From contig CM097882.1 in assembly GCA_044892505.1 (NCBI GenBank), positions 303,738,001-303,802,000 of the forward strand: a stretch of DNA of 64,000 nt, read 5' to 3'. Both the position numbers and the translations under genes were made by a program. Every line of letters starts with the position of its first letter. Position 1 is the first letter of the stretch. A model generated the notes under the pieces. It did no database searches. It worked only from the letters and a program-made list of their open reading frames with translations, and was not told the DNA's origin. Shown in pieces: positions 4,101 to 57,945 of this stretch. Source of the DNA: Schmidtea nova. Taxonomy: Eukaryota.

Positions 4101-7100
4101 CTACTAAAAAGTTACTAAGATTCTGACACTATGATAAATATGAATACCATCAAACGAGACTGGACAGGAATACATGAAAAATTAATATACTATAGAAATC
4201 ATCACACACAAAAACCTTCTCTTTAGCATATTTTCTGATATCAGCAATAATGTTGGATCTGTTTGTAGTTCCGAATCAATTTGTGGAACTTCTTGTCTGC
4301 CATTTATGGATCTTGTTTCCAGCACAATTAGTGTGTCTTCATTTGCTGCTCTCAACTTCTTCTTTAATGCTTCTAACATCTTGTTCCATGGTATCCCAAT
4401 AATATTTCAATTTCAATCTTGACAATGTTTTTCAAGCTGATAAATGTCCTCCTGACCCATCGTCATGTTATATCAACAGTAATGCTTTTCGATGTTTTGT
4501 TGGAACAATAATTAACTAATTTTCATTTTTAACACATTTTAACAGACCGTCATGGATAATATATTTATGCTTTTTTCCACTATGTATTTCCAGTCGCTCT
4601 CTTTTTTGATTGTGACTGCATTATTCCGTAATTGATTCAATTCATCATCATTTTCTTGATCATTTTGCAATTCCTTCATATTATTTGCGGTTTCCACACG
4701 CATTAGAGATGTCGGTTTGAAAGTTAATCCTGAGAAATGCACGTTCTATAAATGTGTATTAAATTTCATTGGTCATGCAGTGAGTGAAAAGGGAATTCAA
4801 ACAAATAAAAGAAAGATTTCAGAAATTGAAAATACAACTAAACCGAAGAGTGTTACAGAATTGAGATCATTCTTAGGTTTAAAGAATTATTATCGGCGGT
4901 TTATCAATAATTCTTCAATAATAGTAGCACCTTTGTATGACGCAACGACAGGGAAGGATAAAATTATTGTTTGGGCTGAAGAATATAGAAAAAGGTTTAT
5001 CAATTTAAAAAATCTGTAAAGTGAAGCGCCAATAACTTATCAAAATAATATTAATAATAACTTATAAAATTTTAAATCTGTAAATATTTACAAAAGAACA
5101 ATCTGAAATTACACAAAAAATTAAAATTTATAATACTAAAGTTTATTAAATAACATTTATGCAAATCGTGCACTGTCAATTCTCTAAATTGGAGTTCTAA
5201 CATCTTTTTTATTCACTTTATAACCTTGAATGATTATATTAATGAACCAATGTTCATAATCCTTGTATTCGATTGATTGGAACGCATCATGGAAACGAGT
5301 TTTTCGGTCGCTGATGTAATTTGTTTTTTTACAAATTAAATTTTTATTGATTTTCAGTAACACTATTTAGTGCAACATTTTCTTTAGTTATATTTGCAGA
5401 TAAACTGTCATACAATGACTGCTAATTTCGCTGGATAAAAGGATCTAAACGAAATTTCCTCTACCAAGAACTAAATTTTAAAATCATAGTACATTTGAAC
5501 CGGTTTGACTTCAGTCCTAATTTCCCTTTTATTATCTTCTCTCCTGTTTTCTTCGCCCTTGTTAGGGCTGTTAAATATTTTATCATAAGTTGGGAAGTTG
5601 ATTTGTGTGATTGCATTTTAATAATAGTGATATTATCTTATAAATGTCTTTGTATTTAGTCACGAGCTTATGTCTTTGTCCAATGAGAATAACGCATATG
5701 CTATACATGTATGTCTTTGTTTAATGTGTCTTTTTCATATGTAACTGATGCATGTGTGTCTATCGATTTATTTATTTAGTTATTTACATCTTTTAACTAA
5801 TTAAGATCTTTATTTGTCATGTTTTTATTTATTTACTTATAAAAAATACTTTAAGTGATAATTAATTGTTTAACTAATTAAAGTTTTTATTTATCATGTC
5901 TTTATTTATTTAGTTATAAAAATTCCTATTAATTATATTTTATTTTTAAAAAATCTAATAAAATTATTTAAAACTTAATAAAAAACTCAAACTGAAAAAA
6001 CTAAAATAAGAATGATAAAAAAATTATTAAATGAAATTATAACACATAAAATGAAAAACATTTAATACAAGAAACTGATAAAATAAAAACATTGATTTTT
6101 CTTTATTGTTATTCTGAAAGCTCGGAATCAGCAATTTTCCAATGACATTCGACGCGATCGGGAGTTGATGAGATTCAAGAGGAGCCGGAAATTCAGGCTA
6201 TTGATTAGAATCTGAAGGAGCAGGACAATCGAGAAATTCATTGCATTCCTTATTTGAATTTTAATCAAGCCATTATTGGAAATACTCAGAAATCTACTTT
6301 AGTCAGTGAACACTGGATTGTTGTTTACGTAAAACCGGATCCAATATATGATTTTTGATTCATTTGGATATTATTATTATTTCAATTTATTAGTTAGTAA
6401 ATTGCAATCTTTGGGTAAACCGATTGTATATAATAGAACTTGGTATCAACATCCATTCCCGAATACTTGTGGTCAACAATGCCTTGCATGGTTAAAATCT
6501 ATGTTAAAAACAATTTAGATTAATAAATTTTATTATAAATAATAACTTGATATTTTATTGATATTTACAGTTATAATGATATTGGAGGAATAATTATTAA
6601 AGAATTATGTATTATTAATGTTAATAATATTTTTAAACCAAAGTATTATATAAACAATGATTCACCTTTCTGGGCAGGAATTGGAATACCTGATCGATTG
6701 GAATAGTATGAAGGACACTATTGCTTTTGCCTAACGTGTATTATGAATGATATTGAAGATACTAGCGCTATTTTCTATGTCAGTGATCTTGATAAACTGT
6801 TGGGCCTGGCAAATTAACTTAAAAACAACAGAATGTTGGGCCCGGCGAATCGCAAGCAATCTAAAATAGAAATAAAATAAATACAAAAAATTAATAAGAA
6901 AAACAATAAAATAACCAACAAAATACCAAAAATCCACCAAGAATCGATAACAAGCAATGGAGCCTAAAATGAATTAGCAACGAATTAGAATGACAATCAA
7001 AAACTTAATCACGCAGAAAGACATTGGAATGAGTCAAACAAAAACTGACAGTGAGTGGGCGGAACACTCGGATGATACACAATCTAAAATAAAACGATTA

Positions 7101-10100
7101 AATAAAAAAAGGTAATGCATCAATAAACATAAAACTCACCGAATTAACAGTGGAAGGACAGGCATTAAAATAAAATAACCAACAAAGTCACATACATACT
7201 GAATTCTGATTGGCTAGCCGTCAACAAAAATAAGTATATATACGGCAGCCAAACTCAGTAAGTTAATGTCATTTTTACTAGTGAACTGTCAGCTTACTTG
7301 TGACAACTGTAAATCAGAAGATCTGTGTAATAGCGAAATCGAATCGGAATAAAAGTTATGAAGTATTGTAATTTGTTTTATTGTAAACCCTCATGAGTAA
7401 AAATGTATAAGGTGTCCCGAAGGTCGTTAGATCTGCCGGGATTTTGGGCCTCTCAGTGCAACACCTTCGGGTGAGGGCTGATGCGGCGAGTAGTTTAATA
7501 AAATAAATTCGGGAAGGGAGCACATAACGGACGAGACGAAACTAATTATGCGACAAAAATGTAGATAGAGAAGAGACACATGAAAGATGAGACGACACAA
7601 ACCCCATGATAAAAACATTGACAGGAAGAGAGGTTTCAGGGGACACCGTAGTAAACACCCCAGTACTTAGCTATACAAATGGAGATACTTACAATCACAA
7701 GTAATTATCAAGGGAGGGAGCGATAAATCCCCTGAGTTAGAGCTATTAAACTAATAATAATCCCGACATGCTAGTGGAATGTTTCAGGTAGTTAGTGCAG
7801 AATTGAATGATGATAATGTATGATGACTAAACATAATCGATCGGTGCGATAATAAGCATCGCTAATGAATGATCTAAATTTGACGTAGGCCGCATCATAG
7901 TGACTGTTAGATTTTCGTGGGCCGATCTCATCACCACGGCGAGTGAGATAAATATAATGAATAAACCAGATAGTGAATTTGAGTATTTCTGCAGAATGAT
8001 GAAGCCGGTAAATTATGAAATTGTATTGATGGATGTTGAGAATGCCTGAACCCATGTACGTATGAGCAACGGGAGGATAATGTCGGTGAATGGAATGATG
8101 GGGGCTGCGCAATTATTACCATATGATTGATAACTATTTTCTCAGAAGATGTTACGGAGAGCAACCCGAATATATAATTGCCAACTAAATCAACCAAATG
8201 AAATGGAACCGAACGCAGCGACGAAAATTCCGAGAAAAATCCAAGCCACAGCGAAGCGCCACATGAGGGTGTGGAGGCGAAGCCACCTAAATCTCAACAA
8301 TATGCCGAAGGCTATCCAATACCATTGCCGGAAAAGATGGAAGGGTGACCCATCTTGGCCCTTGCCAAACCCAGACAACATTTCTAAGATTCCAAAATGG
8401 TTTATTCAGTTCGACGATGGGAGTGCTATGTCCCAATGGTTGCTAACGTTTATGGATATTCCAGGGCAGGTGATACGACAGATGGGCTATATCCTCTTAG
8501 AGCGCCCCAGATGCATCCGTACCGGCGAATTTCGTCCGTACACCAATTCTCCAGTAAATCAGGATATGGAGCAGGACCAATGGGCTCCGGGAACACGGTT
8601 GTGGGAAGTCTTTATCCATAACAACCAGTTATGTTAGATTCCGTTTTCGGAGTACTTCCAAGCGGACGGCACCGGAAAAGTGGATCGAGAATGCGATCAG
8701 GAATGGGCCGAAGTCTGATGAAACATCTACGGACATATGTGTGATATATGGTGTCAGCTAAAATAATTAAATAAATAAATGGTTGAGTTCATGAGTTTTG
8801 ATGGTGAAGCATGAATGTGGTGTGAAGGGATGAATGACTGGGGGAGAAATAAATAAGACGGCGGAATAATGAACAGAAAATTGAAGTCAAATAGAAGGTG
8901 TATGATGGTGGTGTGATGACCGAATTTGATAAAGACGAATAGTTGACCCCCTGTAATTCTAGATGGACGAGATTACAGAGGACCACTGTGAAAATCGTCA
9001 ATTGAGAAGGCGTATGAAAGCGCTGGAAAGCCATTTGAAGCGACAGGAATCAGAAATAAACCTATTACGAACAACCTAATTCCACCCCGAACGGTCTAAA
9101 GATATACAACAACATCGCTACCGGACAGAGAGAGCTCTAGAAGATCAGGTCAGAGAAACCGCCGCGGTCAGATTAGAACTGAATAACTATCTACGATTGT
9201 CGACCAAGGAATTTGTTGAGCAACAATTGCGGCCCCTGATACGTGCTAGTACTTTTAGCCGATGGGCAGTGTCAACATGCACCAACAATTAAACCCAAAC
9301 CGAGGGATGCTTCACTTCTACCACGAACATTCCAGTTGAAATTTCTAAACCTGAAGGGTCAGCACGCAAAGCGGAGGAATCGCTTAGGCGCGAAACGTCA
9401 CCGAGAGAGGAGGGCGTATGCCGAAAGACTCGAAATCGAGATCGATTTGCTGAGCGGACAAACAGAGAAACAGCTCCTCAATGTTATCAATCCGGATGTT
9501 TTGCTAAATTAAATGAATGTTTCAGTATTAACAGTGTTGTCTCGTGATTGAATATAGAATGTATGAAAATTTGGTGAATGATGTAATAAATAAGTATACA
9601 CAATTCATTTGAAGGGATCGGGGGAAAATGTTAAGGGAGCGAACCATAGACGTAATTAAACTCGTGATAAAAATGGGGACCGGAATAAAACCACACAGAC
9701 CTTCTATCGGTAATGGTGGACCCGAAGATAAATGAGGGAATAGTAGCCGCAAGGTTGCTCACCTGCCTTATCATTCTACAACGTTGATACAGTATCAAGA
9801 TGATGAGTAATTAGGGACACATCATGGGTATCAGCGGGGGAAGCGTGTTTATGTTGGCGAGATTACCCTAATATTAACATCAAATAAAATCTCAGTTCAA
9901 AGACCATACCAACAAACCAGCAAGAATAAGAAAAAGAAAATACATAAATTAACATATAAATCATCATAGAACAACCAATAATGCATAGAATTTGCGTAGT
10001 GAAACATAAATAAAAATTTTATTGTGCATAAAATAATCACTAAGACTTGACTACATCACGAGTAGGTGGGCCACTCAAATTTGACAACATCACCATAACC

Positions 10101-13100
10101 AAGCACAAAATATTCATGCTAAATACATAATAAATAGCATAAAATCAAATACAATCAAACCTACAGACAGTTAATGAGAACTACGCAAATCAAATGAAAA
10201 CTATTATCAGACGATAAGACGAATTCTGATTGACTGAAGATTACTATATAAGTAAGTACTAAATCAGTCTAAAAAAACACAACCACAACACCACAACAAA
10301 AACCAACACTAAGACCAAACGTAGCCTAACTAAAGTTATATCTGACATTGTACCAAGCTAATCATTTGAAGAAACATTTGTGTGAAGGATCAATTGGAAA
10401 TAAAGGTATACTATGAGACTTTTGTTGTTATTTTAAACCCTAATGTTTTCCTTTTTATGATGGTAAAATCAATAAGGACACGTCCTGGAGGTATCCGGAT
10501 TGACGGGCGGAATGGGCCTCTCAGCACATCATCCTATGGGCGGTGGCTGATGCGGCGTAGTGGAGCCAAATGAACAGGAGAGGAGGTGCACATAGAGCAT
10601 CACTGAAAAGAATGCACATATGACATTTTCGAGATCTAACGAGTCGAAATCAAAGGGAGGATTTGGTTCAGTCCCGAAAAAATTAAGGAGATACAACAGC
10701 ATCGATATTGAGCCGAAAGAGCGTTGGAAGAACAAGCTCGAGAGACAGCCGCCGTCAGGCTAGAGCTGAATAACTATTTAAGAGCGTCGGCTCGACATTT
10801 TATCGAAAGGCAGTTGAAGCCATTGATCAGAGAGAGTACGTTCGATCGATGGGCGACTCCCGTCGGCAAGAATATCGAAACGCAAACGGAAGAGGGATTT
10901 TTAACGACGAAAGAAAAGGAGGTATCGACTATGCAACCAACCCAGGTCTTAGCCATGAAAGCGAAAAAGAGAAACCGCCTAGGAGCAAAGCGGCGCAGAG
11001 AGAGAAGAGCTTACGCGGAAAGGCTCGGCTTAGAGGTAGACCTGCTTAGCGGGTTATCCGAAAGACAATTGATTAATGTTATCAATCCAACCGTATTTCT
11101 AGGGAAATAAAGGTATTTAGAGATGACTTGACTTGTTTTATTGTTTGATGTGGAATGAATGATGAAATGGAGATATAAATAACTGATAAAGAAATTACAC
11201 AATTCATTTAACCAGTCGCCGGAAAAGGATGATAAAAAAACCCTAGACATAATTAAACATAATGAGTAATGGTAATTGGGACCGTAAAAAATCCACACAG
11301 GCTTTCTATCAGCAGTGATGAACCCGTAGATAAACGAGAGAATAGTAACCGTCAAGGTTGCTCACCTGTCTCGTCATTCTACAACGCTAGATACATTACC
11401 AACTTGATAAGTAATTAGGGACAAGTCATGGGTATCAACGGGGTGAATTTTTTTATGTTGGTGAGATTTCCCTAATGATAACATCAATAAAAATCTCAGT
11501 TTAGACACCATACCAACAAACCAGCAAAACTACAAGTGTTGAAGAAATATTTCTCGAAATTGAGATTAATTAAATAGAATTTTAAAGAAATTGAAAATGT
11601 TTCAGATAATATATCGTGTCCATATAGAGACGATAGTATGTGTAGCTATAAAGGATGTGTGTGCGGTGTTATAGATTATTTAAATCAATTAATGTTTTAT
11701 GTGTTTTATTATTAATTAAAATTATTATTATTTGATAAATATTATCAAATTATTAGTCATCAAAGTCATGACATAGTAAATAAAGACACGAGGTCATGAA
11801 CTCACATCTATTTATCATGCTACATAACAACTATAGTGACATCATATACATAAACAATCATGAAGTATGTGTGTATACATTTCCCTATCTTATCTCGATT
11901 TTGATTGGATGATTAATAAAACTTAAAACATCAGCTTTATATAGTCTATACTTGTATTTTTAGTCACTTTTAATCACAAATTTTATTAAAACTATTTTGA
12001 ATCAAAAAAAACTATTACAATGAACAATATCGATTTAAATAAATCACGAAGAGTCGCCGGAGGAGTAAACATTAATTTTATTATTTTATTTTTATCTCGT
12101 TAGAAATTATTATAGCGAATAATATTGTTGCTAATAACAGTGTTGGAGGAAACAGTGGCTAATTGAATGGAGCAAAAATTATGGGTATATTTTATATTAT
12201 TTTTACTAAATATTATATTATTATATTTTTATTTTAAATTTATCATTATTATATTATTATATCCTTATTATTTTATTTTTAATTTCAAGTTATTATTAAT
12301 GTTATTATTATTATTAATTTAAATTAATTTTTTAAAAATTTTTTATACTTAGAAAATTTTGATGCTGATATTGATGCGTCCACTATGCAGAATGCCCCCA
12401 GTTTTTCGGATGCTCCGATTAACCTTTTGATTAGTAAGTTTTATTTTACAATGATACGTCTCTTTTCATCTAAAGAGCTATGAGCGACAAACCGATACTT
12501 ACTCATTTACTCTAAGGAGTGCAATTGGCAGAAAACGTACCGGTACGTTCATACTCTGAGAAGGGTAGTCAGCCGTGAACGTACGGGTACGTTCATACTA
12601 ATCAACGGGTTAAAGGATCGAAAAAATGTAAGTTTATGCTAATGTTTTTAAAAAAAATATCTAAAGTGTTTAATCAATTGTTTTTTAATTTTTATATTTA
12701 ATATACTTTTAATATTACTTATATTAGTTTTGTAATAGTAACAATATTATTTAATGATAGTTATATAAATTGTTGTTTAAATATTCAAAAAAGAAAGGTG
12801 TGTTTTAAAATAAATAATTAATCTTGCCATTTGTATTTTTGATAAATTTAAGAGGCATAACTGGCTTACCATGCCAAGAAATCAATGCCGTCACTAGACA
12901 GCAGACGACCAAAAGTATGTTGTAGTCATTAGCAAAGCAGGCTAGAGAAATATTAAATTTTAACGTGAGGAAGTTCGATGGAAAAGTTGGTTGTGAGGCC
13001 GAACTATGGCTAAAAGATATTTCAGAATGATTGAGGATAGAAGACCAGAATTTAGTAAATGCGTTTGATTTTTTACTGACAGAGGCAGCAGCTCTATTAT

Positions 13101-16100: not shown

Positions 16101-19100
16101 TGAAGAACACAAAATTCGAAAACGGATTATTCGTGCTTGAGAAAGACGGAAAGGATATCATATTAGTACCATTATACGACACTAATACATTAGTCAACGA
16201 CATATATACAGAAATGTGTCATATTGGAGTGAAGAAATTAACAAGTTACATGAGCGATTTATTTTTTTGGCCGAATATGCAGAGAATAATTCAAAGCTGT
16301 TTAAGATCATGTGAAATATGTTGTAAATCAGAAGTTCCCAACCTTTCTGGTGCTGTGACCCATGATAACATTTGCCAATTTGTGGCGACCCAAACAATAA
16401 AATCAATAGAGTTGCACTTCAGTTTCAGCATTTTTGCAGTCAAATATTATTATTGTTGGGCCCGGTGAATCGCAAAACAATCCTAAAAAGATATAAATTA
16501 AACATAAAAATAACAATAGAATTAAATAAAATAGATTACCAACCATCAATGAAAAACAAGCAATCAGCAAGCACGGAAAACCTGAAAGAAATAGCATAAC
16601 AATACAAATAATAATAATAACATAGAACTTACCGCTAGACCGAGATGAGAGAACTGGTTGATGAGTAACAAACCAACCAAGCGAAAATAAGACCTATCAA
16701 AATGTCATCAGATAAAATAGGTACAATAAACAATAATTACCAGTGATCAATTGAGAACCACCAAAGCCTGAAATAAAAAGAATGATGAATGGTAAAAATA
16801 ACAATAAAATTATCAGAGCGAGAATGACAATTATGAACGGAACAAATGCGGAGGTGGGCCGCTCTACAAAATGTAGAAAATAAATATAAAATAAAAATCA
16901 CTGAAGCATAAATAAAAGAATAAACATCAAACTCACCGGTCTAATAGAGAAAAACACAACAATCAAAACAAATGGATAGAAAATAGACAACCGTGCTAAA
17001 TTCTGATTGGTTGACAGGCAACACAAATTAGTATAAATACTGAAGCGAAATCAGTATGAGGGTCACTTTTTTACCAGTCATTATTTTCACCGAGTGTAAT
17101 TTACCATTACTATCTGACATCTTACGAGTGATTGTGAACGTTTTGAAAATTTGTACATCAGTAGTGAAGTTGAAATAAAGGTATACTTCATTTGAATTTT
17201 TATTATTAATTGAACCCTCATAATATCTAAAATCCATAAGTTTTGTCCCGAAGATCTCGCGATCTGACGGGATACTCGGCCTCTCGGCACAACATATTCT
17301 TATATGAGGTACCGATGCGGCGAGACTATAATGTGTTAAACTGATGCGGAGGGGGAGGGGTGCACATAGCGCATTGTATAAAGGACCTATAGGCGATTGA
17401 AGTCGTGTGGATAATAATATACCATAACTATGCTCGGTGTCAATCTAGATCAGAGGGAGGGACTCTCCATGTTACCGCCGATGTCATAGTAAAAGAAACA
17501 GGCAGTGAGACCAGATAACCCAACGGGTACCCAGTAGGTTCCCTCCAGAATAAACTAGCGGACCCCATCTTCGTAACCATACCCATTGATTAAACCATTC
17601 TGAACCGAATGTACATGATCCAGTGAAATGATAAATTCCAACATACGATAACAATAACCAGTAATGCATAAACGATCACCATAATCAATAAAATGCGTGT
17701 AACGATAAGCCTAAGTAACAATCAGTGTAACGATCAGCCCACGGCGATAGGCCATAGCCAAGACATAGCGTTCGCGTAGTAACACCAACTACTACGTCAA
17801 CATGCGAATAACGATATAAAATTACAACCGATCTAACAACAATATATTGAGAGCAATCAAACTTCTTAAAGGCCGAGGATGTATGAAAATGATCGAGTGA
17901 GTAATGTAAGAGTTGAATATGTTCTCTAAGTATGATGTCCGAATGATGCTTGACTGGGTTGACTGATGAAGGAATGCATGATTGACCGACGATTTCGACT
18001 GATAATTAAACCCTGTACACGTTCATATTTAGAAAATGAAATGCCGAAGAACCCGTCCACGAGGCAACAGGAATCAACAGTGGCAAGCCATGGAATCTAC
18101 ACCTATTCCGAATACCATCAAACGGGCGGCAGAGCGATGCCTCAGAACATGGATGCGCAGACACGTGGATCCCGCAGCCCGAGCGGCCATAACGTCTTTT
18201 CGATGGCGAGTACGCTGGGAAGGCGATCCGAATTGGCTGACACAAGCCGCTAGTCCGACACGAACGAAGCCCCGATGGTTCGTACAATTCGAGGATGAGA
18301 CACAACAACCGAAATGGATAATCAGCGATCCATCCATCAACCCAGAAGCCGAACCACCGGAGAAAGCAAACCATACCTACATGCTCCCGGAAATGTAGCC
18401 ATGGACATTCAATCCAACGGAGACCAAGCGAGACTGTGGGAGGTCTTCGCATGCAACAATCGATTATGCTGGAGCCCCTGCCCCAAAATATACCTACCGA
18501 ACGGAACCGGGCGGGAGGATAGACAATTCGACCAAGACCTCAGGGAATTCACGCAAGAACTATGAACGGAGCTGTTGGAAGTGTGTTGAACATCTGTATT
18601 TTCATCTAAATAAATTGTCTAAATCTCTTGGTTGTATGAATTGGTGTTGTACTGTGTATGTTGAGTTATGCAAGGGTGAATGATGTATGAGAGACGTAAG
18701 AGAGGCACTAAGTAGTGTATACGAGAGTAGGGTAAAGTTAGAAACGGCAAGAACCACAACCAAGTATAGCTTCGGGAAATGTAGGGGAATACCAACCCGT
18801 AACGAACCCCAATCCAAAACTGATAATTTAAACCCCTTTATTTTTTTATATGAATAATACGACCCCTCGTGACTTCAGGAAAGAAGCCAAGGAGTATAAA
18901 GCTCGCGCTAAAGTGTTGGAGAGTCGATTACGCCAATTGTGTGAGGAGTATCAGCGCGTTAAAACCACATGGTTCAACCCTGAACGAGTGAGATCTATCC
19001 TACAGGCAAGATATAGAGCGGAGCGTATCGCCGAGGAGCAATCCAGGGAGACCGCAGCGGTGAGGCTAGAGCTACATAACTACCTAAAAGCCTCTACTCA

Positions 19101-22100
19101 GGAATTCATATCGCAACAATTACGTCCACTCATCCGGGCGAGTACGTTTAATCGCTGGGCCGAAACCATATCTACGACGACAAATACTCAGACCGAGGCA
19201 GAACAAGATACTACGACGCCCACCCCAGCAATATCGACGCCGCTGGAAGGCTCAAAAAGAACGAAGCGCCGAAACCGTCTAGGAGCAAAAAGACGTCGAG
19301 AACGAAGGGCTTACGCAGAGAGACTCGGTATCGAGGTCGACTTACTGAGTGGATTGACTGAACAACAACTATTAGATGTGATCAATCCGTCAATGTTATT
19401 GAACAATTAATAAATGCATATGAAATGAGTTGAATTAATTGGGTTGTCTGTGGAATGATTGAGAAAACAATAATAAAGTCACTCGAACCCATTTCATTTT
19501 ATGCTGCAGGTATCCAGAATCGAGTTATTTGCGAAAAGTTCAAGGAGCGCATAAAGGGACCAAAACAAATCCACGTAAACCTTCTATCGGTAGTGGTGGA
19601 CCCGTGAATAAACAAGGGAATAGTAACCGCGAGGTTGCTCACCTGCCTTGTCATTTCACAACGTTGGCACAGTACCAACATGATGAGTAGTTAGGGATAC
19701 ATCATGGGTGTCAGCGGGGATATATTTTTTTATGTTGGCGAGATCACCCTAACGTATAAAATCCAAACGATCTCAGTTGTCCTTCTAACCAACACACCAG
19801 CATTATAATTATGTTTTGGCTTCTAATTATCTGATTTTATTTTATTTTATACTTTTATATGCATCATATTTTTTTATTACAAATTTTGAATAATATTCAA
19901 ATTTCGAATAATATAATTGAATCATAATAATTTATCAATAAAACAATTTGTTATAAGTATATGTTTTGGCTAATATTTTTAAAAATGAATTTGCAAAGGA
20001 ATAAAATGTTTACATTATTGTAAGTGTGTATTGTGCAATGTACATTATACAATTAAGAGTCTCACACAGAGGCGTAGCTGTGATATTTTGCGCACGCGGA
20101 CGAACTATAAAATTGGCGCCTCAGCCCCCTCTCCGTTTAATCACATTTTTCTATTACATTAAATAAGGAAAACAATTTAAATTTTAATAAAACATTGTAT
20201 TTAAAGAAGCAAATTTATAGAAATTATAGTACATGACCCACTCAGTCACTGTCGTAGACTGGTTTACATAGTCTACAAAAGATTTATTTTCCTTGATTTC
20301 ACTGTTGCAAACTGGTCAATTACGCAAAATCTGTTTTTTCCAATGTTTCTCTTTCGACGCTAAGAAGAGCAAGATCGCTGAGACGATCCTGTCCCATTGA
20401 CGCACACAAATGCGACAAAATAAGTTTCAATTTGCTGAACGATCGTTCACAGCTTGCAATTGAAACTGCTATTGTTAATAAAATTTGTAATGAAATTCGC
20501 AGATTCGGAAATATGTCGTTTCCATAAAACACAATAAAACCAAGAAGATCCAAAGATGTTTCTAGTAGAACTTCATTCAGGTTGATGAGCAGCATTCTGC
20601 AATCTCCGATTTCTGTGAAAAGTTTTCTCGGCTGGCTGCAGTGGTTGGCAGGCAGCATCATCACTGTGGATGGCAGACGTATCAGATGACACGTCTGCTG
20701 AGCCGCTGCAGTGATCTTGTGACCGATTTATTACCCTTGTTTACTTATTATAATGTAACGTTGTAAGCCTCATTTTGGCGCCTTGTACTTTGGCGCCCAG
20801 GGACATATGTACCCACCCCACCCCCTAGCTATGCCTTTGGTCTCACACAATCGAAGCTATTAACTTCAAAGTTGAGGTTTTAATTTATAAAATTTGAAAA
20901 GAAAATAAAGCTGAAGAAAGCAAAAATCTTATTAATTTAATTATAGCTGTTAGAGTTGAAAAACCCAAAAAGCGTCAGTAAGAAGGCTGTGCTTGCTTCT
21001 TTCTTGCCAAATCAGAAATTCTTGGAACAGTCTTTGCAAGACCACAACGCAGATCATCTTCTGCAAAAAGTCTGCTTCTGTATTTAGATTTGATAACCCA
21101 CAATCTTGAGAAGCCTGTTTCACAAAGGTATGTTGTTGGAAAAGAAAGAAGCAGGCGCAAAACGATCTCAGACCAAACAGGATATGACTGCAAACAATTG
21201 ATCCAGAATTTGGTAATTGACATTGAAGAGAAATCATTTTTTGCTGCATCACTGGTAATCAGTTCAATGAACTCCTCTTGTGCATTCTCGGGAACATCTT
21301 CAACTCTGATGGTGAATGGACTTCTAGCAAGTGCAAATGGTGTATCAGGTAAATTCGGAAAATATCTTGAGATTTCTCCTTCAAGAATTTCAAAGTGTTC
21401 TTTGACAGAAAGTATTGTGCTATTCATTTTTTCCTGTTCAATGTCATTTTCCTCAAAAAAAGCAGATAAGTTCGACAACATGTAAATGCTATTTTCATCC
21501 AATTTTGTTTGCCAAAGTTGAAGTTTCAATTGGAATTCTCGGATCTTTTCTGACAAATCTAGGCATGTTTCATTTGGTCCTTGGAGGGATGAATTTTATT
21601 CGTTTAAGAGTGCAAAGATGTCAACCAAATAAGCAATTTCGTGAAGTTGGTTTTATTCGTCAAAAAGTGCTTCAAAGTGTGGTGTAGATTTTTGATAAAT
21701 AAACGTTTATAATTCATCACGAAGATCAAAAACACGTTTTAAAACTTTGCTTCTTGACAATCATCTCACATTAGTGTGAAATAACAGAACATTATTGCAT
21801 AAATCCAACTCACTGCAAAGTTTTGAAAACAGGCGGCTGTTTAAAGCACTAGCTTTTTTTTCTTAAAATACTGGACATCCTTGCCTGCATAGTTAGGATA
21901 TTTAGTATCAAAATGGCGTTTCAGTTTGTTGGGCTTCATGGATTCGGCTGACATAATTTCGTTGCAAATAACGCATTGTGACTTTTCAATTCCTGTTGCA
22001 ACTGTGAAAGTAAAGCCATACTTTAAAAATTCATCACTATATTTTCTTTTCCTAACACTTGTATCTCGCTTATTCATTCTCAAGGGCATGCAAATTTCAT

Positions 22101-23795
22101 CAATATAAAATTTTATAATAAAATTTTTAGTTTAGTTGACTTTTATAATTAGAGAATATGAAGCACGTGCATGAATAATTTTAATAATAGCTGAAAACAA
22201 TGTTTTGTCGCAAACAGAATATGATTTCATTTTACTTTACTAAGTACGTAGGTAATTTCGTAGAGTTGAAGTTGCAAGAATTTAAATGGCTAAAATTATT
22301 AAATTATATAGGCTCCTGACATCTGTCGAATGAATCATAGTATTGTACGTCGCTTCAGTGTTGTGACTGTAATGCCAGTGTAGTCAGAGTAGGTCAGGAG
22401 AAGTATCGCTTAAATTTAAAATGATAGTAAGGAACCACTGACTCTCGTAAAAATTATTTTTCAGAAGGTCTCAGGCGACCCCCCCCCAAACTATCACGAA
22501 CCTCTGTTGTAAATGGAAGATAATATAAGAGAAAACAAAGGAACGACTGATACCTATAATAAGTTCAGATTTCTTGGAACAATTGGTTGTAGTTATAGCC
22601 CGCATGAAACCTCAAAAAAGTTACAGATATTTATTAGTTATTATTGACCGTTTTAGAAAGATGGTTAGTCTAGCTGCACTGGAAAGACAAGATGAGAAAT
22701 CGTTGTTCAAAGCCATATTAGAGAAGTGGATATATAGATTCGGTAAACCACGAAGTCTTTTATCAGACAAAGGTAAGAATTTCGACAGCATCTTTGTGAA
22801 GACACACCTAGGAAAGTTAGGCATCGAACAACACATGAGCTCACCATACCAACAGCAATCGAATGGGCTGGTGGAAAAGACTATACGAACAGAGACTTAT
22901 TAACAACTTCTACATTCAGTGGATTAAGGGAGAGAAATTTGGTAGATTTATTCAACGTATAGAATTTTGTATCAATGCGACAACACAGAGTATAACAGGA
23001 TTCTCACCATTCGAAATTGTTTTCTGGAGGAAAATTAATCTACATTCAACACTACCACAGTCAAATTTGAACGCAACCGAAATACGCAAGCAGGTTCTAG
23101 CAAACAGTGAAAGGATAGCAAAACGAATGAAAGAAATAGACACAGATAGAAGGACGCATAGAACTTTTGAGGTAGGGGAGAAAGTATTGGTTCGGAAAGA
23201 ACCACAAAATCGGTACAAAGATGGCCTAAAGTACGACGGGCCGTTCGTAATATCAAGATTTTTGGAGCAGATCGATGGAGATTCAAAGAAACTTCGTAGG
23301 ATCGAATGGCTGAAGAGATGGGCAGATTCTTAAAGGAAGGGGGAGTTATATAAATTGCTGTTTAAATATTCAAAAAAGAAAGGTGCGTTTTAAAATAAAT
23401 AATTAATCTTGCCATTTGAATTTTTGATGAATTTAGAATGAGACATAACTATAATAGTTACTCTATAATAGTAATAAAATTGAAACTTATATTTTATATT
23501 ACTGATAAATAGTTGAAATACTTATAATACTGATAATAGCTGAATTAATTTATAATAGTGATAATATTGTTACTTATATTTTATAGTATTTATAACATTT
23601 TATAGTATTTTTAGTATTTTAGTACTGATAATGCTTTATATTAATTAGTTGAATTACTTTATAATAGTTGAAATATTTATATTTTGTAATACTAATTGTA
23701 GTGCCTCCGTCATTTATCTATTATTTATATATTAAAAGTAACTAAAACTTAATTAAATATATTTTTAATTATATAAGATTATAAAAGAAAAATAA

Positions 23796-50070: not shown

Positions 50071-50940
50071 TAGAAAATGGTCATTAATAATGATACACTA
50101 ATTATCTCATCTAACTTGAACTTTAAATCTTCTTGTTGTAATGGAGAAGATATGGACGAACCCAAATCACAAAGCAGGTTTCGATGGAGTCAAAAAGCTA
50201 AGGAAAAATGTATCAAATTCTAAAAACAGACTCAAACTTGACTATCGGGGCAACTTGCACACAGTCTAAACAACACGATGCTGAAACGCTTCCTGACTCG
50301 AGCATATAAAACATATAGAATTAATGATTTGTGGCAAATGGATTTGATGGAAATGATTCCGTATTCAAAAATTAACAAGGGATACAAGTATATTTTAACA
50401 TAAAATGATGTTTTCAGTCGTTTTGTGAAGGCTATTCCAGTAAAATATAAATCTGCTAATGATATTGAATTTGCAATCAAAACAATGTTCAATGGTGTAC
50501 GTCAAAATAATTTACAAACTGATTTGGGTAAGTTAATTTATTTTTATTAAATATTAATTATTTATCTAGGCAAAGACTTTTACAACAGTGTTGGGCCAGC
50601 CAAATGACAAGAAATCGTCTAAAATAAATAATATATTTAGAGAATAATAATAAAATACCAGTGAATAGATGAAAGGCCAACCAAAAATCATTGAAGTCTG
50701 AAAAAGAAAATGATATAATAATGAATAATAAAAATATGACAACCTGAAAACCAGTCAAGTAGAACCAGACCACCAAAGCAAGCATGACATCACCAGAATA
50801 TGTCATAAATCATAAAATAAAGACATAAGATAAAGACATAAAATATATCAAATAAGATGAATTAAAATCAAAAACTATCAATGACTGGACATCAGAAATA
50901 ATTAGAAAATAAATACCAAACATTAATAACACAGTGACGA

Positions 50941-51092
50941 ATTCTGATTGGCCGACCCAAACTGAAAACTGTTATATAAGCAGTAGCCAAAATCAGTAGA
51001 GAGAGAATTTTTGTCATTGAGTACCAAGAATGTCACTGTAAAAACATTGAAATTGTACCTTGAGATCATCTAGCGAAATAAAAGGTATGAGT
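50941..51092 (+). promoter_or_regulatory. element D promoter, AATAAA and splice donor
   Basis: ctgattgg, TATATAA 50973, TCAGT 50993, AATAAAAG|GTATGAGT 51077-51092. Confidence 0.7.
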
Positions 51093-51156
51093 TAGTTGTT
51101 ATTCTTTAATATGATACGAGCTCTCATGATTCATATATTTAAAATCATTAAGACCA

Positions 51157-51235
51157 CATCTGGAGGGTCTCCGGACCCGTAGGGCGCCAAAGGGCCTCTC
51201 AGCGCATTACCTTCGTGGTGATGGCGGATGCGGCG
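51157..51235 (+). ncRNA. motif 1 (copy D)
   Basis: ggtc-tccg-gacc hairpin; GGCCTCT-cagc..cattacc-ttcgt-ggtgatg..ATGCGGCG. Confidence 0.5.
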
Positions 51236-51804
51236 TAGTTTTCTCGATAAACTATGGGAACGGGATGGGGGTGCACATGGTCTCGTATGTCAGAGCGAGT
51301 TATGTGGGTTAAAAGAGTTGAACTGCCAAAATAGTAATGATTGATAACCGATATATAATGGATGATATCGAAGCAAACCCACCACAATAGACCCATTCCA
51401 ACGAGGAAGCGAACATCCACCCCGAATGATGATAAATGATGATGCGATTGACCGATTAATGTGTAATGATGTCTCATAAAATCAGGAAGGTGATTCTTAG
51501 TTGACTACAACAGTTCCAAACCTTACATTGTATGATGAGTTGATGTAGTGAATGTCAAGGCATTCAAGAGTTATGTATGCGATCGATCAAAATAACCAGC
51601 GCGCTGATTAGAGTGAATCGGCACTAATACAACAGCCAATACAGTGTACTTGAATAAACAGGGAATGATGAATATGCAAATATTGATAACGAATGCTGAT
51701 GAAGGGAGGTCTGATGAGTTGTTGTGGGTGAATGACGTCGGAAGGTGAAATTCCAGCCTGATTAAATGTGATAATACAGTTATTTTCGTTCCAAGAAACT
51801 CGAC

Positions 51805-52347
51805 ATGAAAGGTCGACCTAATCTCGGTAAAGACGCATGGTGAAAGGACAATGGCACCCAGTCATTTTCAATCGTCATAGCGCTAGACGAAGCGCCAACC
51901 AAACTCTAGGACTGCGTAAGAAGGCATTTGCTCCATTGGCGTAGATCACACGATATTTCAAAGCTCTTCTCAGACCAAACAACATGGAGAATCAAACTAC
52001 GGTGGGAAGGTGACTCCCATTGGCCGCTAGTAAACCACCAACCCTTTTCAGATAAGCCAAAGTGGTTCATCAAGATGCAGGAACCCTCTGGAAAACACTG
52101 ATGGCTATTTCATTTCCAGGCGATAGCGGTGTCCGAACTCCACCGTTTGGGATACGTGATTTTGGATCGACCAAGAAACATTGTCACGGGAGAATCGATT
52201 TCCTATACAAATCTACCTACCGGAACACTAACCACGGATGAACGAAGTACCATTTGGGTGGCAGGTGTCGAATGGCAGGAAGTTTTTCTGTATAAAGGAC
52301 AATTATGCTGGAACCCAAACCCCGATTTCTATCATGCCAATCCATAA
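51805..52347 (+). pseudogene. element ORF1 (copy D; stops and a frameshift)
   Basis: RRHLLHWRRSH..LRWEGDSHW..KPKWFIK..GYVILDRP..WQEVFLYKGQLCWNP. Confidence 0.75.
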
Positions 52348-52638
52348 TCAGTGTGTAGTAAAGTTAAAAATAAATCTTCGTCTCCACATTTGCTGTATGT
52401 CGTATGTTGAGTTTGCATGAGTGGAAATATGGAAGGTAGTAATTAAGAATGACTGAAATACAATAAAAGGACTTGTAATGAGAATGATGCCTGTGTGAGT
52501 AGTTTGATGACGAGTTATAAGCAAGTTGATGAGAGAAAAATCTGGTTGGGTCATGAGTTTAACCGTTACACATGAGAGTGACGATCAATCTGTTGACTAA
52601 TAAAATCAAGGACATGACTGTTGTTTCTATTTTAGAAA

Positions 52639-53202
52639 ATGGAGTCATCAAACAAATCGACTACTGACGAGGAGGTTGAACAGATGCGTCGACGTATCTG
52701 TCTTCTAGAGGGAACGATAAATCGGCAGCGAGTAGACTTAGAGGAACTCCGACGGAGCTGGTTTTGTCCTGCCGCAGTTAAGGAGATCCAAAAGGGAAAG
52801 GATTGTTCACAGCGCGCCCTTGACGAACAAGCAATTGAATTGGCAGCGACCCGAGTAGAACTAAATCGCTGTCTTAAGACGGTGTCGGCCAACTTCATCT
52901 CTGAGTACCTAAAAGAAAAGATTAGAGCAACCACGTTCGACAGATGGGTTCCGTCACGGAGCATAAATATGGAGACTCAAACCGATAACCTGATTAGTAG
53001 CACGGTCACGACTAGTGAGATAAAAACTGGAACGTCTGTAGCCAACGCCAAGACGAAAAAGCGAAACAGATTAGGAGCGAAGCGCCGACGAGAAAGACGT
53101 GCCTATGCCAATCGAATGGGCATAGAAGTGGATTTGTTGAGTGGATTGTCAGAACGACAATTACTGAAAGTAATCAACCCAAAGGTGTTATTAGGTCAAT
53201 AA
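52639..53202 (+). CDS. element ORF2, intact 187 aa
   Basis: open ORF; coiled coil, [22 protein letters not shown]. Confidence 0.85.
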   Translation: MESSNKSTTDEEVEQMRRRICLLEGTINRQRVDLEELRRSWFCPAAVKEIQKGKDCSQRALDEQAIELAATRVELNRCLKTVSANFISEYLKEKIRATTFDRWVPSRSINMETQTDNLISSTVTTSEIKTGTSVANAKTKKRNRLGAKRRRERRAYANRMGIEVDLLSGLSERQLLKVINPKVLLGQ

Positions 53203-53379
53203 AATATAGAATTGTTTTGTGTGCGTGTAATTGTATGATGAGTAGGAGAAGTAGAACGTATGCATGAGTAAATAATCGGAAATTCACAATTCATTTAACC
53301 GGAAGACCGATGGAGATAAGTAAATAGAACCCTAGACGAAATTGAAACGGTGAATGAGTAAAAGGGGGACCGAAGTAAA

Positions 53380-53564
53380 TCCACAAAGACCTTCTATCGG
53401 TAGTGGTGGACCCGTAGATAAATGAGGGAATAGTAGCCGCAAGGTTGCTCACCTGCCTCATCATTCTACAACGTTAGATACACCACCAACATGATGAGTA
53501 GTTAGGGACACATCATGGGTATCAGCGAGGTGAATATTTTTATGTTGGTGAGATTGCCCTAATC
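53380..53564 (+). ncRNA. structured RNA motif 2 (copy D)
   Basis: atgagg/cctcat, GCAA loop, gatac/gtatc, catgatg/catcatg, ttaggg/ccctaa. Confidence 0.7.
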
Positions 53565-53974
53565 AGAACATCGAATAAAAAATCTCAGTTGTTATACTCA
53601 CAACAACAAACCAGAAACAGTAAAGGCAATGAAATTCTAAAGGAAATCAATCATTACTCGGTATTCTCTCAATTCAAAGCGGCTGATGTCGAAAGATTTA
53701 ATCCAAAATTAAGAGATAGTCTGAAAAAAATATTTTGTTCACCAGGGTTGTTAGATGTTACGAGAACATCTTCTAAGTTGCTTGAAAAAACATTTTCATT
53801 AACTGAATTCATATTCAAAAATTTATTAATACCACAATTATGTTTAATATTTAAACAAACCTTTCGGCATTGAATCAAACAATTTCAAAACAATTTCTCA
53901 TAAGAATTCAATATCATAAATACAAATCGAATTAATTTTTTATTTGAAATTATATTTTAAAATTTAAAAACTTA

Positions 53975-55371: not shown

Positions 55372-57945
55372 AGAGAACACCATTTTTTTAAATATATTAA
55401 TGCAATATATTTCAACAGCTTAGCTGTCATCATCAGGCTTTCCACAATCTCAATAAAATAAAAATTAATCTTATTTATACGCTTAATAGTGATTACATAA
55501 TTACATGTGCATAATCCAATAAAACTTTTATTTACCCTAGTAAAATTAATTAAAACCTTGTACGAGGTAATTGGTGATTTTCATTTTTACATGTGCATTA
55601 AATCCGTAATTTTAAACTCACAACGTTGTTTAAGTTCAAAAATTGATTGTCAAAAAAAAATTAAAAATTTGAGAAAATTGTTTGGTGTATGTATGTTTAA
55701 TGTTAAGAATACTGTGTTGAATGTTAATGATGTGCCATTGACGAGTGATGAGGAACGTATTTTGAAGTTTGGCCCGAATCATGGTATTAGAAATAGGATT
55801 GACAAATTTAAATTTTTTTCCCAGATTGAATGTTTGTTTTTTACTTTATCTAAAAATAAGAATATTAATTTGAATTATTTAAAACATTTACTGAATGTTA
55901 ACGCCGATAATTATTTAACTAAGAATAAAAAACAAAATATTAATTATTTTAATACTTTAAAAAATTTATCGAAGAAAAATATTAATATATGTAAATTTGA
56001 TAAGGGTAATGGTTTGGTCGTTCTTAATCATGATGATTATATAAAAAAGTTAGAAATGGTATTGTTATCTCCACAATTTGAAAAGTTTGTCAGTTTTCGT
56101 AAGAATGGCAAATTACCACCTTTAAAAGATGAAGCCATATCAATATATCTACTTCATGACTTAATTTCAAATAACCATATAGATAAGAATATTGTTAATT
56201 CACTTTGGCCTTGAGGATCCCAACCTGCTAAATTATACGGTCTTCCAAAAGTACATAAAGATAATTAACCTATGAGACCTGTATCGTCAATTATTCAAAC
56301 TTCACAATATAAGGTTGCGAAGTTTTTAGATAGTTTGTTGAAACCCTTAATTAAGACTGAATATGAATGTAAAGATAGCTTTGAATTTTGCCTCTTTTAT
56401 AGTAAATTTAAATAAGAGTGGGAATGATGACTTTATGGTTTCGTTTGATGTGGTTAGCCTTTTTACAAATGTTCCTTTAATAGAAACGATTGATATTTGT
56501 TGCAATTTATGGAGTGTTAACACTTAACTTCATAATACTATTGATGTTGTTGCTTTTCTAATTTGCTTTTCTAATTTGCTACTTCTAATGTCCATTTTAT
56601 CTTTGATAATCAATGGTATAAGCAAATTGATGGTGTTGCCATGGGCTAACCTTTAGCTCCTACACTGGCATCTATTTTTATGTCAAGTTTAGAAAATAAA
56701 TTTATAAATTGTAGTGTGAATAAACCCTTAGTATATAAACGTTATGTTGATGATATTTTTCTTGTATTTAAGAATAAAGAACATGTTGAGCCTTTATTGT
56801 ATTATATGAATAATTTGCATGAAAATATTAAATTTACTTTTGAAGAAGAAATTAATTCTAAAATATCATTTCTTGATTTGTTGATTGAAAAGAAAGATAA
56901 ACATTTTGAAACTGAAATTTATAGGAAAACAACAGATACTGGTTTGTATACATCACCGGAAAGCTTTTGTGATTTTAAATATAAAAGAAATATGATAAGG
57001 GAATAGGTTTATCGTTCTTGGACATTGCCGTCAACTTATTGTAAATCTATAAATAGTATTGATAAATTACTTAAAGTACTACATAATAATGGATATTCAA
57101 AATGTTTATTGCAACGAATGGTGAGTGAAACTGTTGATAAGTGTATTAATAAGTTGAATGTGATTGATGAAAAAATTTCTCCTGGTGTTGATCCGTTTAA
57201 TATCTTTGATAGTGCTTCTTTGATTGAAACATGTGATGTTGTTATGGGAATGAATGATGGTGTTGATTGTAATAATAATGAAATAAATAAAAGTAACTTG
57301 AATGATTGCATTGGTTCTGTTATAGTTTTACCGTTTTCTGAGGGATTTGTAAATTTTAAAAAATATATTATAAAATATAATGGAAATTCTAATGTTAAAA
57401 TAATTTCTAAGTCTTGCAAAGTTCGGGACATGTTCAGTAATAAATCTGTGACGTCATTTTGTCTGTGTTCTGATCTCATATATCGTTTTACTTGTAATGG
57501 GTGTAATGCCACATACATTGGAGAGACTGCCCGTCATCTCTGTACACGAGTTCAAGAACATGCCAGAAAGAGCGGAAAGAGTAACATTATTGAGCATAAT
57601 AAGACTTGCAAGAAGAGCATTGATATTCCTAATTTCAAAATACTTTCTAGGGGTTTTAAAATTATTATGAACGTGTGATTTGTGAGGCTCTGATGATAAA
57701 ATCATTTAATCCAAAAATAAACATACAAAATGCAATATCTACAGACATTTTGAGAGTTTTTAATTAATTTTACTAGGGTAAATAAAAGTTTTATTGGATT
57801 ATGCACATGTAATTATGTAATCACTATTAAGAGTATAAATAAGATTAATTTTTATTTTATTGAGATTTTGGAAAGCCTGATGATGACAGCTAAGCTGTTG
57901 AAATATATTGAATTAATATATTTTAAAAAATGGTGTTCTCTTATT
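55372..57945 (+). mobile_element. Penelope-like element (RT plus GIY-YIG), decayed, with inverted pseudo-LTR
   Basis: YKRYVDDIF and IYRFTCNGCNATYIGETARHLCTRVQEH; 55372-55560 is the reverse complement of 57765-57945. Confidence 0.92.
57877..57922 (+). ncRNA. hammerhead-ribozyme-like core in the Penelope pLTR (inverse copy 55389-55437)
   Basis: CTGATGA, acagc-taa-gctgt stem II, GAAA, atatatt/aatatat stem III; stem I poorly paired. Confidence 0.55.

What the first reader, a model, noticed from the sequence alone, without database searches (positions are those of the whole stretch)
18850..19410. ORF2: coiled coil, TQT motif and near-invariant Arg-rich module, a Rev/Tat-like candidate
ORF2 is intact in C (186 aa) and D (187 aa). 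The C-terminal [40 protein letters not shown] is nearly identical in four copies while its codons differ synonymously (RNRLGAK = agg aat cgc tta ggc gcg aaa / aga aac cgc cta gga gca aag / cga aac cgt cta gga gca aaa / cga aac aga tta gga gcg aag). This is direct evidence of purifying selection. A TQT tripeptide survives in the variable linker of all four; TQT is the established core of dynein light chain LC8-binding sites. An Arg-rich motif followed by a Leu-rich tail, co-inherited with structured RNAs, parallels retroviral Rev/Rex/Rec plus response-element systems (inference).
Basis: partly seen in the sequence, partly recalled or inferred. Interest (0 to 1): 0.75.

Follow-up and report, generated by a model that had tools for sequence, protein, structure and literature searches.

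The report
Regulator gene inside giant retroelement LTR
This gene sits inside the 3.3-kb end repeat of a giant virus-like jumping element and is strongly conserved across its many copies; it likely makes a small RNA-binding protein that would help the element's own full-length RNA leave the nucleus, as HIV Rev does.

Summary
ORF2 (186 aa) has dN/dS about 0.06 between diverged copies; TQT is kept in 78 of 84 open copies inside a freely changing linker. Young full-length elements carry open ORF1 and ORF2 in both LTRs. Promoter, poly(A), splice-site and recombination signals place both ORFs in a predicted 2.6-kb U5, after the promoter and before the tRNA-Pro-like primer site, each behind its own predicted splice acceptor, with a poly(A) signal at the ORF2 stop. 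Known LTR-overlapping genes lie in U3 (recalled). The two flanking RNA motifs show compensatory changes. Best mechanism (about 0.45): a Rev-like, LC8-dimerised protein made from a short spliced LTR transcript that helps the unspliced genomic RNA. Main rival (0.25): a bZIP-like DNA-binding regulator, since the basic region fits N-x7-R but has no zipper. No RNA data, no known homologue, LC8 model only weakly supportive.

The parts
16454..19802 (+). Solo LTR (copy C, 3349 bp, TG...CA) of a Burro-type giant gypsy element
   Evidence: same ends found joined to a primer site and to internal sequence elsewhere
16450..16453 (.). Left 4-bp target-site duplication
19803..19806 (.). Right 4-bp target-site duplication
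   Evidence: contigs of the host repeat without the insertion join 16450 to 19805
17006..17039 (+). Conserved CCAAT box (reverse) and TATA box; predicted U3/R border about 30 nt downstream
   Evidence: found in 81 of 108 LTR starts; recombination switch points
17174..17184 (+). First poly(A) signal directly followed by a splice-donor-like AG|GTA; predicted end of a short R
   Evidence: exact AATAAA in 63 of the 65 LTRs that carry the motif
17216..17355 (+). RNA motif 1: conserved hairpins inside the predicted intron; candidate response element
   Evidence: RNAalifold, some two-sided changes, no formal control; no Rfam match
18036..18565 (+). ORF1 (about 190-230 aa in open relatives), behind a predicted splice acceptor; broken in this copy near 18335
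   Evidence: no family or fold match
18850..19410 (+). ORF2, 186 aa, open; its predicted splice acceptor is degenerate in this copy
18874..19131 (+). ORF2 residues 9-94: two long predicted helices split by the invariant WF.P; coiled-coil pattern in helix 1
19171..19197 (+). ORF2 residues 108-116: LC8-type motif ending in TQT(E/D), at the start of a low-confidence linker
19258..19323 (+). ORF2 residues 137-158: Arg/Lys-rich helix (12 basic of 22)
19324..19401 (+). ORF2 residues 159-184: Leu-rich tail with NES-like spacing
   Evidence: patterns in 21-23 of 25; weak evidence
19409..19452 (+). Second poly(A) signal overlapping the ORF2 stop, followed by a G/T-rich stretch
   Evidence: AATAAA near the stop in 23 of 23 LTRs with open ORF2
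19556..19802 (+). RNA motif 2: most conserved part of the LTR, multi-stem structure, next to the primer site in full-length elements
6834..9922 (+). Solo LTR copy A with its own 4-bp duplication, nested in copy B; ORF2 broken
6798..11526 (+). Solo LTR copy B (interrupted by A), 4-bp duplication; ORF2 broken
50589..53616 (+). Solo LTR copy D, 4-bp duplication; ORF2 open at 52639-53202

Best explanation
ORF2 is a conserved accessory gene inside the LTR of a Burro-type giant retroelement; it is predicted to be made from a short spliced LTR transcript and likely acts like Rev, binding a structured element in the element's own unspliced RNA so that this RNA would be exported and used. SHOWN: location in both LTRs of 29-30-kb elements; window copies are solo LTRs; purifying selection on the helices, TQT and basic region; conserved promoter, poly(A), donor and acceptor motifs; paired RNA motifs. 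INFERRED: (1) transcription starts about 30 nt after the TATA box; (2) the donor next to the first AATAAA is spliced to the ORF1 or the ORF2 acceptor and the RNA ends at the second AATAAA, giving two small early mRNAs (about 0.8); U1 binding at that donor would also mask the first poly(A) site in the 5' LTR; (3) the protein dimerises through its coiled coil, helped by LC8 at TQT (about 0.65); (4) the basic helix enters the nucleus and binds motif 1, which lies in the intron and so marks unspliced RNA, and the Leu-rich tail recruits export or blocks splicing and early poly(A) use (about 0.45). The full-length RNA needs such help, because it must keep this intron and read through two poly(A) signals before it reaches the primer site and gag.
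For: LTR identity: 16 of 17 loci with both ends have a 4-bp duplication (20 fetched), and the exception is a 3' LTR whose upstream pol is 96% identical to that of a full-length element. 138 LTR ends are followed by a tRNA-Pro-like primer site (tRNA identity recalled). 7 of 8 fetched LTR pairs align over 3.2-3.3 kb at 99.05-100%. ORF2 was found in 25 of 30 primer-site loci at 65-74% identity for full matches. Internal domains: against the Burro description in PMC6431247 section 7. Borders of R: similarity is discordant in 162 of 254 pairs at U3|R and 33 of 79 at R|U5, against 0-12% at six other borders. Acceptor: AG 0-5 nt before the start in 106 of 114 copies (control 35%); strict YAG plus pyrimidines in 74 of 114 against 107 of 2299 other ATGs. 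Motif 2: 98.2% of cells paired, 10 of 65 pairs with two-sided change, slid controls 28-47% paired. Domain order coiled coil, ARM, Leu-rich tail matches the Rev-like layout (PMC5568270, abstract and passages). A gypsy element with a spliced export protein exists (CERV, PMC10309623). LC8 model 0.45 against best control 0.15, contacts agree at least 79%, partner pLDDT at least 41; the mark was reached by 51 of 78 solved and 2 of 108 mismatched pairs, but at 0.60 or under by only 5 of the 78 and by all 4 passing mismatches, so weak.
Against: No RNA evidence of any kind: start, splicing and poly(A) sites are read from DNA motifs. No sequence or fold link to any Rev-like protein. The basic region matches host bZIP basic regions closely, and 5 of 25 members hit Pfam bZIP_1 below the cut-off. 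Structured RNA beside a primer site is expected for packaging and priming anyway, so motif 2 needs no protein partner, and most of its two-sided changes follow one subfamily split. Motif 1 had no formal control and is not alignable in the distant family, which also lacks TQT and the AATAAAGG pattern. NES-like spacing is common in hydrophobic helices. Copies are related, so counts are not independent events. R is short and indel-rich, so part of the discordance may be fast change and not recombination.
Confidence: 0.45

Rival explanations
1. ORF2 is a DNA-binding transcription regulator of its own LTR, using a bZIP-like basic region dimerised by the upstream coiled coil and LC8 in place of a leucine zipper (functionally like foamy virus Tas or HTLV-1 HBZ; recalled).
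For: The basic region fits N-x7-R and resembles host bZIPs residue by residue. Pfam bZIP_1 in 5 of 25 members, best E 5e-4. AP-1-like sites in 11 of 26 U3 regions against 3.3 in shuffles (related copies). N142, R143, G145, K147, R150 are 98-100% conserved.
Against: The first zipper Leu position holds Gly (Asp in the distant family) and no heptad Leu series follows. The distant family has His for the key Asn. All hits are below the Pfam cut-off. U3 is freely swapped among lineages independently of the ORF-bearing part, which fits poorly with a co-evolving protein-DNA pair.
Confidence: 0.25
2. ORF2 acts on the host or on particle traffic: an LC8-bound coiled-coil adaptor that links element RNPs to transport, or that counters silencing, with the basic region serving as a nuclear or nucleolar localisation signal.
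For: Fast divergence against pol: ORF2 24% identical between two families whose pol is 86% identical. Selected LC8 motif. Burro RNA is repressed by PIWI in planarians (PMC8532177 passages). Burro carries other host-facing domains.
Against: A plain localisation signal would not need near-invariant N, L, G, E positions. Synonymous saturation with low dN between lineages suggests a benefit tied to the element's own RNA or DNA. LC8 is a general dimerisation hub, found in regions unrelated to dynein (PMC6607443 passages).
Confidence: 0.22
3. The 3.3-kb unit is itself a non-autonomous mobile element or a host gene family, not an LTR.
For: Most copies stand alone: 1294 exact ends against 138 followed by the primer site. 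The first tight searches for a primer site and a purine tract found nothing.
Against: Paired 99-100% identical copies flank gag-env-pol with one shared target duplication. The primer site follows a 6-nt spacer that the first pattern missed. The closest pairs decay near neutrally.
Confidence: 0.03

Closest known systems
Burro / GYPSM1 giant gypsy-like elements of planarians (PMC6431247, section 7 read whole)
   Same: About 30 kb; Gag with CCHC knuckles; fusion glycoprotein between gag and protease in one polyprotein; PR-RT-RH-IN; ankyrin; RING and MATH/TRAF; accessory ORFs.
   Different: The section read mentions accessory ORFs but none inside the LTR (its figure was not visible). BIR and BCL2 were not detected by Pfam at E 0.01. 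TRAF/MATH lies downstream of pol as a separate ORF. No named Burro sequence was available for direct comparison.
Retroviral Rev, Rex, Rec, Rem with their response elements (PMC5568270 abstract and passages)
   Same: Small accessory protein; coiled coil, Arg-rich motif, Leu-rich tail; predicted spliced mRNA; structured RNA in the predicted intron.
   Different: No sequence or fold similarity found. Encoded wholly inside the LTR upstream of the primer site, not near env. LC8 motif. Function untested.
CERV of C. elegans Cer1 (PMC10309623 abstract and passages)
   Same: Gypsy-group element with a spliced, lineage-specific nuclear protein needed for export of unspliced genomic RNA; leucine zipper, NLS and candidate NES.
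   Different: CERV is 517 aa, shares exons with gag and ends in the env position; it has no recognised RNA-binding motif. ORF2 is separate and LTR-encoded.
LTR-overlapping retroviral genes (HIV nef, MMTV sag, foamy bel; recalled, no call)
   Same: Accessory ORF carried in LTR sequence and so present twice.
   Different: Those lie in U3 and are expressed from the 3' end of the genome. Here both ORFs lie downstream of the promoter, so a solo LTR holds promoter, splice sites, two ORFs and a poly(A) signal.
Foamy virus 5' LTR poly(A) control by U1 snRNP (PMC3694450 abstract)
   Same: A splice donor next to the LTR poly(A) signal, which could suppress it in the 5' LTR.
   Different: In foamy virus the donor is upstream of the signal; here it follows it directly. 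No protein partner is implied there.
bZIP basic regions (PF00170)
   Same: N-x7-R basic helix.
   Different: No zipper in register; below the family cut-off.

Membership tests
LTR of a Ty3/gypsy element | TG...CA ends with short target-site duplication | tested here: met
   16 of 17 loci with both ends; 4 of 4 window copies have the duplication, copy D ends in AA
LTR of a Ty3/gypsy element | Near-identical direct pair around gag-pol in the order PR-RT-RH-IN, primer site after the 5' copy | tested here: met
LTR of a Ty3/gypsy element | Polypurine tract before the 3' LTR | tested here: inconclusive
   No pure purine run (0 hits); a conserved G-run plus spacer precedes 291 LTR starts
Burro | Total length about 30 kb with long LTRs | tested here: met
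   LTR-to-LTR spacing 25-26 kb plus 3.3-kb LTR
Burro | Fusion glycoprotein in frame between gag and protease | tested here: met
   PF24664, E 1.7e-68, then RVP and RT in one 2854-aa frame
Burro | Ankyrin, RING and MATH/TRAF domains | tested here: met
Burro | BIR and BCL2-like motifs | tested here: inconclusive
   Not hit by Pfam at E 0.01 in 23 ORFs; profile-profile search not available
Burro | RT clusters with named Burro-1 to -4 sequences | not testable with these tools
   No named Burro sequence was available
Rev-like proteins | Arg-rich motif plus oligomerising helix or coiled coil | tested here: met
Rev-like proteins | Leu-rich CRM1-type export signal | tested here: inconclusive
   Spacing patterns in 21-23 of 25; low specificity
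Rev-like proteins | Made from a spliced mRNA; response element retained only in unspliced RNA | tested here: inconclusive
   Splice motifs conserved; no RNA data
Rev-like proteins | Binds the element and drives export of unspliced RNA | not testable with these tools
   Needs bench work
Rev-like proteins | Sequence or fold homology to Rev, Rex, Rec or Rem | tested here: inconclusive
   No hit in Pfam, PDB sequences, PDB or viral folds; a helical model with pTM 0.33 cannot exclude it
bZIP | Basic region N-x7-R/K | tested here: met
   (main family; His for Asn in the distant family)
bZIP | Leucine zipper starting 9 residues after R/K | tested here: not met
   Gly at that place, no heptad series
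LC8 client | TQT anchor in a disordered region with D/E/P at +2, near a coiled coil | tested here: met
LC8 client | Physical binding | tested here: inconclusive
   Model score 0.45 against best control 0.15, weak

The most novel reading that the evidence does not exclude
Burro elements are complex retrovirus-like agents whose regulatory gene pair (a Rev-like ORF2 and an unrelated ORF1) is encoded in a 2.6-kb U5, ahead of the primer site. Every solo LTR is then a self-contained spliced transcription unit, and hundreds to thousands of them could supply regulator protein in trans, or titrate it, across the host genome.
Probability: 0.3. Interest if true: 0.8.

Novelty: new variant of a known kind. 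Interest (0 to 1): 0.6.

Why it matters
Burro elements are already suspected to be integrated proviruses, but how a 30-kb intron-containing RNA is made and exported is open. A defined candidate regulator and candidate RNA elements make that testable by RNAi, FISH and CLIP in planarians. Genes in U5 would be a new LTR design: they force a minus-strand strong-stop DNA of about 2.7 kb, and they survive solo-LTR formation, the process that normally disarms these elements. A Rev-like protein here would be an independent invention of the system in the gypsy group, next to CERV.

Tried and rejected
Unit as a DNA transposon or stand-alone element: rejected once paired copies were found. A primer-site pattern with a 0-3 nt spacer gave 13 hits with unrelated flanks and a purine-tract pattern none; both were too tight. 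The pair at C2:454.5 Mb is a segmental duplication and the pair at C1:131.8 Mb is rearranged, so neither was used. ORFs in U3 with a promoter near the LTR end: rejected, since the TATA-like word there varies between copies and leaves no room for R-U5. The AATAAA 194 nt from the end is GATAAA in A, B, D and was dropped as a poly(A) signal. A long R reaching the second AATAAA is disfavoured but not excluded. Homologue searches: none; one 407-aa protein (E 1.2e-5; 97%; 1-member cluster without a useful name). Atlas: only scores under 0.8 or none. Fold searches: nothing at E 0.001 for ORF2 or ORF1 (best Z 3.9). Rfam: two chance-level hits. Sequencing runs: no RNA holder listed; the four runs laid behave as genomic DNA contigs. 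Earlier findings: none. Literature: searches found no description of ORFs inside Burro LTRs; the original Burro paper (Grohme 2018), its extended data and Repbase were not seen and may annotate them.
Full report
Observation. ORF2 is open in copies C (18850-19410, 186 aa) and D (52639-53202, 187 aa) and broken in A and B. The quoted codons are correct. A search of the 1.25-Gb genome gave 9,229 first-look candidates, of which 150 were scored at 73-100% identity. Among 40 open frames from 60 loci, median dN/dS fell from 0.36 for close pairs to 0.06 for distant ones. This is the pattern of a gene selected while the element replicates and decaying after insertion. In 84 open copies, TQT was kept in 78 and the next residue was E or D in 83; the linker around it is close to neutral.

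What the unit is. ORF2 lies in a 3.0-3.4-kb unit that starts TGTTGGGCC and ends CCAGCA. All four window copies have a 4-bp target duplication, and A is nested in B. Of 20 related loci, 17 had both ends and 16 of these the duplication. A distant homologue met by chance in locus L045 occurs in many same-strand pairs about 25 kb apart. One such pair proved to be 3,340-bp LTRs, 99.9% identical, around a giant internal region. This gave the junction motifs: 138 ends of the window's family are followed by a 6-nt spacer and a primer site that resembles the tRNA-Pro site of MLV (identity recalled), and 291 LTR starts follow a shared internal end. Seven of eight fetched pairs align over the whole LTR at 99.05-100%, with matching target duplications and open ORF1 and ORF2; the eighth is truncated. 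ORF2 was found in 25 of 30 primer-site loci. The one locus without a duplication carries an ORF2 90% identical to the window's and has upstream pol 96% identical to a full-length element. There are 1,294 exact LTR ends against 15 in the control, so most copies are solo LTRs.

The parent. Pfam finds RING, Gag CCHC, a viral fusion glycoprotein, protease, RT, RNase H, integrase, ankyrin and TRAF RING-MATH in that order. This matches the Burro elements of planarians as described in PMC6431247, section 7, read whole, including env between gag and pol. BIR and BCL2 were not detected. The host is inferred to be a planarian from this architecture; no call named it. The gypsy pol pieces beside copy C are only about 25-45% identical to this pol and belong to another family; copy C sits in a hAT-like repeat inserted in them.

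LTR anatomy, read from DNA only. A CCAAT-TATA promoter lies 350-580 nt into the LTR in 81 of 108 LTR starts. In 65 of those 81 an AATAAAGG-like word follows 91-154 nt later; 63 have an exact AATAAA, nearly all followed by a donor-like GGTA. The 16 without it include the distant family. Segment similarity switches partner at the two borders of this short stretch (64% and 42% of informative pairs) and seldom elsewhere (0-12%), as expected if it is R, where strand transfer occurs. The remaining 2.6 kb would be U5 and holds motif 1, ORF1, ORF2, a second AATAAA and motif 2. ORF2 starts 0-5 nt after an AG in 106 of 114 copies, with different spacing in different lineages; the strict acceptor pattern occurs in 74 of 114 against 4.7% of other ATGs. 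ORF1 of the solo subfamilies also follows such a site. An AATAAA lies at the ORF2 stop in 23 of 23 LTRs with an open ORF2. Eight of 19 solo and 6 of 13 paired LTRs keep every part; these were chosen as best hits, so the share is inflated. In copy C, ORF1 is broken and the ORF2 acceptor is degenerate, so this copy may well be silent. A long R that ends at the second AATAAA is less favoured but not excluded. Either way both ORFs lie between promoter and primer site.

RNA motifs. Motif 2 folds on the plus strand with 98.2% of cells paired and 10 of 65 pairs changed on both sides; slid controls reach 28-47%. Most two-sided changes follow one subfamily split, so independent events are few. Motif 1 shows similar changes but had no formal control. 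Neither matches Rfam.

Protein. The model (pLDDT 76, pTM 0.33) has helices 9-41, 44-94, 97-114 and 143-167 and a low-confidence linker 112-138. The motif fits LC8 preferences given in PMC6607443 (passages). A model with host LC8 scored 0.45 against 0.15 for the best control, a weak pass that may reflect likeness to solved complexes. No family, fold or close homologue was found; one 407-aa protein is a remote relative. The basic helix resembles both a Rev ARM (recalled) and host bZIP basic regions, but the zipper is missing. Between two families pol is 86% identical and ORF2 24%; the distant family lacks TQT.

Mechanism. The genomic RNA must keep an intron and pass two poly(A) signals within its first 2.7 kb. 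A small protein from the spliced product, with coiled coil, Arg-rich helix and Leu-rich tail, and a structured RNA inside that intron, is the Rev layout (PMC5568270, abstract and passages). CERV shows that a gypsy element can evolve such a protein (PMC10309623, abstract and passages), and foamy viruses show U1 masking of an LTR poly(A) site (PMC3694450, abstract). I put this at 0.45, a DNA-binding regulator at 0.25 and a host-facing or transport role at 0.22. None is tested.

Novelty. The element kind is known. The LTR-internal gene pair was not described in what six searches returned, but the original Burro paper, its supplements, Repbase and the review's figure were not seen. Other papers: PMC8532177, PMC11410931 and PMC6884822 were seen as passages only. 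Verdict: new variant of a known kind, interest 0.6.

Noticed in passing
L259:4775-5245, L183:6532-6993, L261:3683-5053, L185:4619-6025: The element carries a RING-finger ORF before gag and a TRAF-like RING-zinc finger-MATH ORF after pol, plus several ORFs without a Pfam match.
   Followed up: partly
L259:4231-4260 and L262:1085-1104: The primer site follows a 6-nt spacer and has two mismatches to the recalled tRNA-Pro site; the 3' LTR is preceded by a G-run and spacer in place of a purine tract.
   Followed up: partly
window 19634-19645 (motif 2): A word that reads as a strong splice donor on the minus strand is conserved even in the distant family; it could reflect an antisense spliced RNA or only structure.
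   Followed up: no
window 16328-22300: Nested insertions: gypsy pol remnants, interrupted by a hAT-like element with transposase fragments (about 20300-22050), itself interrupted by solo LTR C.
   Followed up: partly
L045 and L037, flanks of the LTR: A second LTR type with the same first nine bases and a 24%-identical ORF2 hosts or flanks the window-type LTR; Burro LTRs often insert into each other (also A in B).
   Followed up: partly
G000:C2 5.2-45 Mb (L299-L310): At least 20 intronless, near-identical LC8 dynein light chain genes in clusters.
   Followed up: no
P0001 residues 191-336: A 407-aa database protein whose second half is an ORF2 homologue and whose first 62 residues match three other places in this genome; possibly a chimeric gene model or a host capture.
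   Followed up: partly
L179-L182: A rearranged full-length element with a gypsy insertion in the end of its 5' LTR and internal LTR duplications.
   Followed up: partly
window 55501-57678: Fragments of a Penelope-like RT and endonuclease, judged by eye from the ORF list.
   Followed up: no
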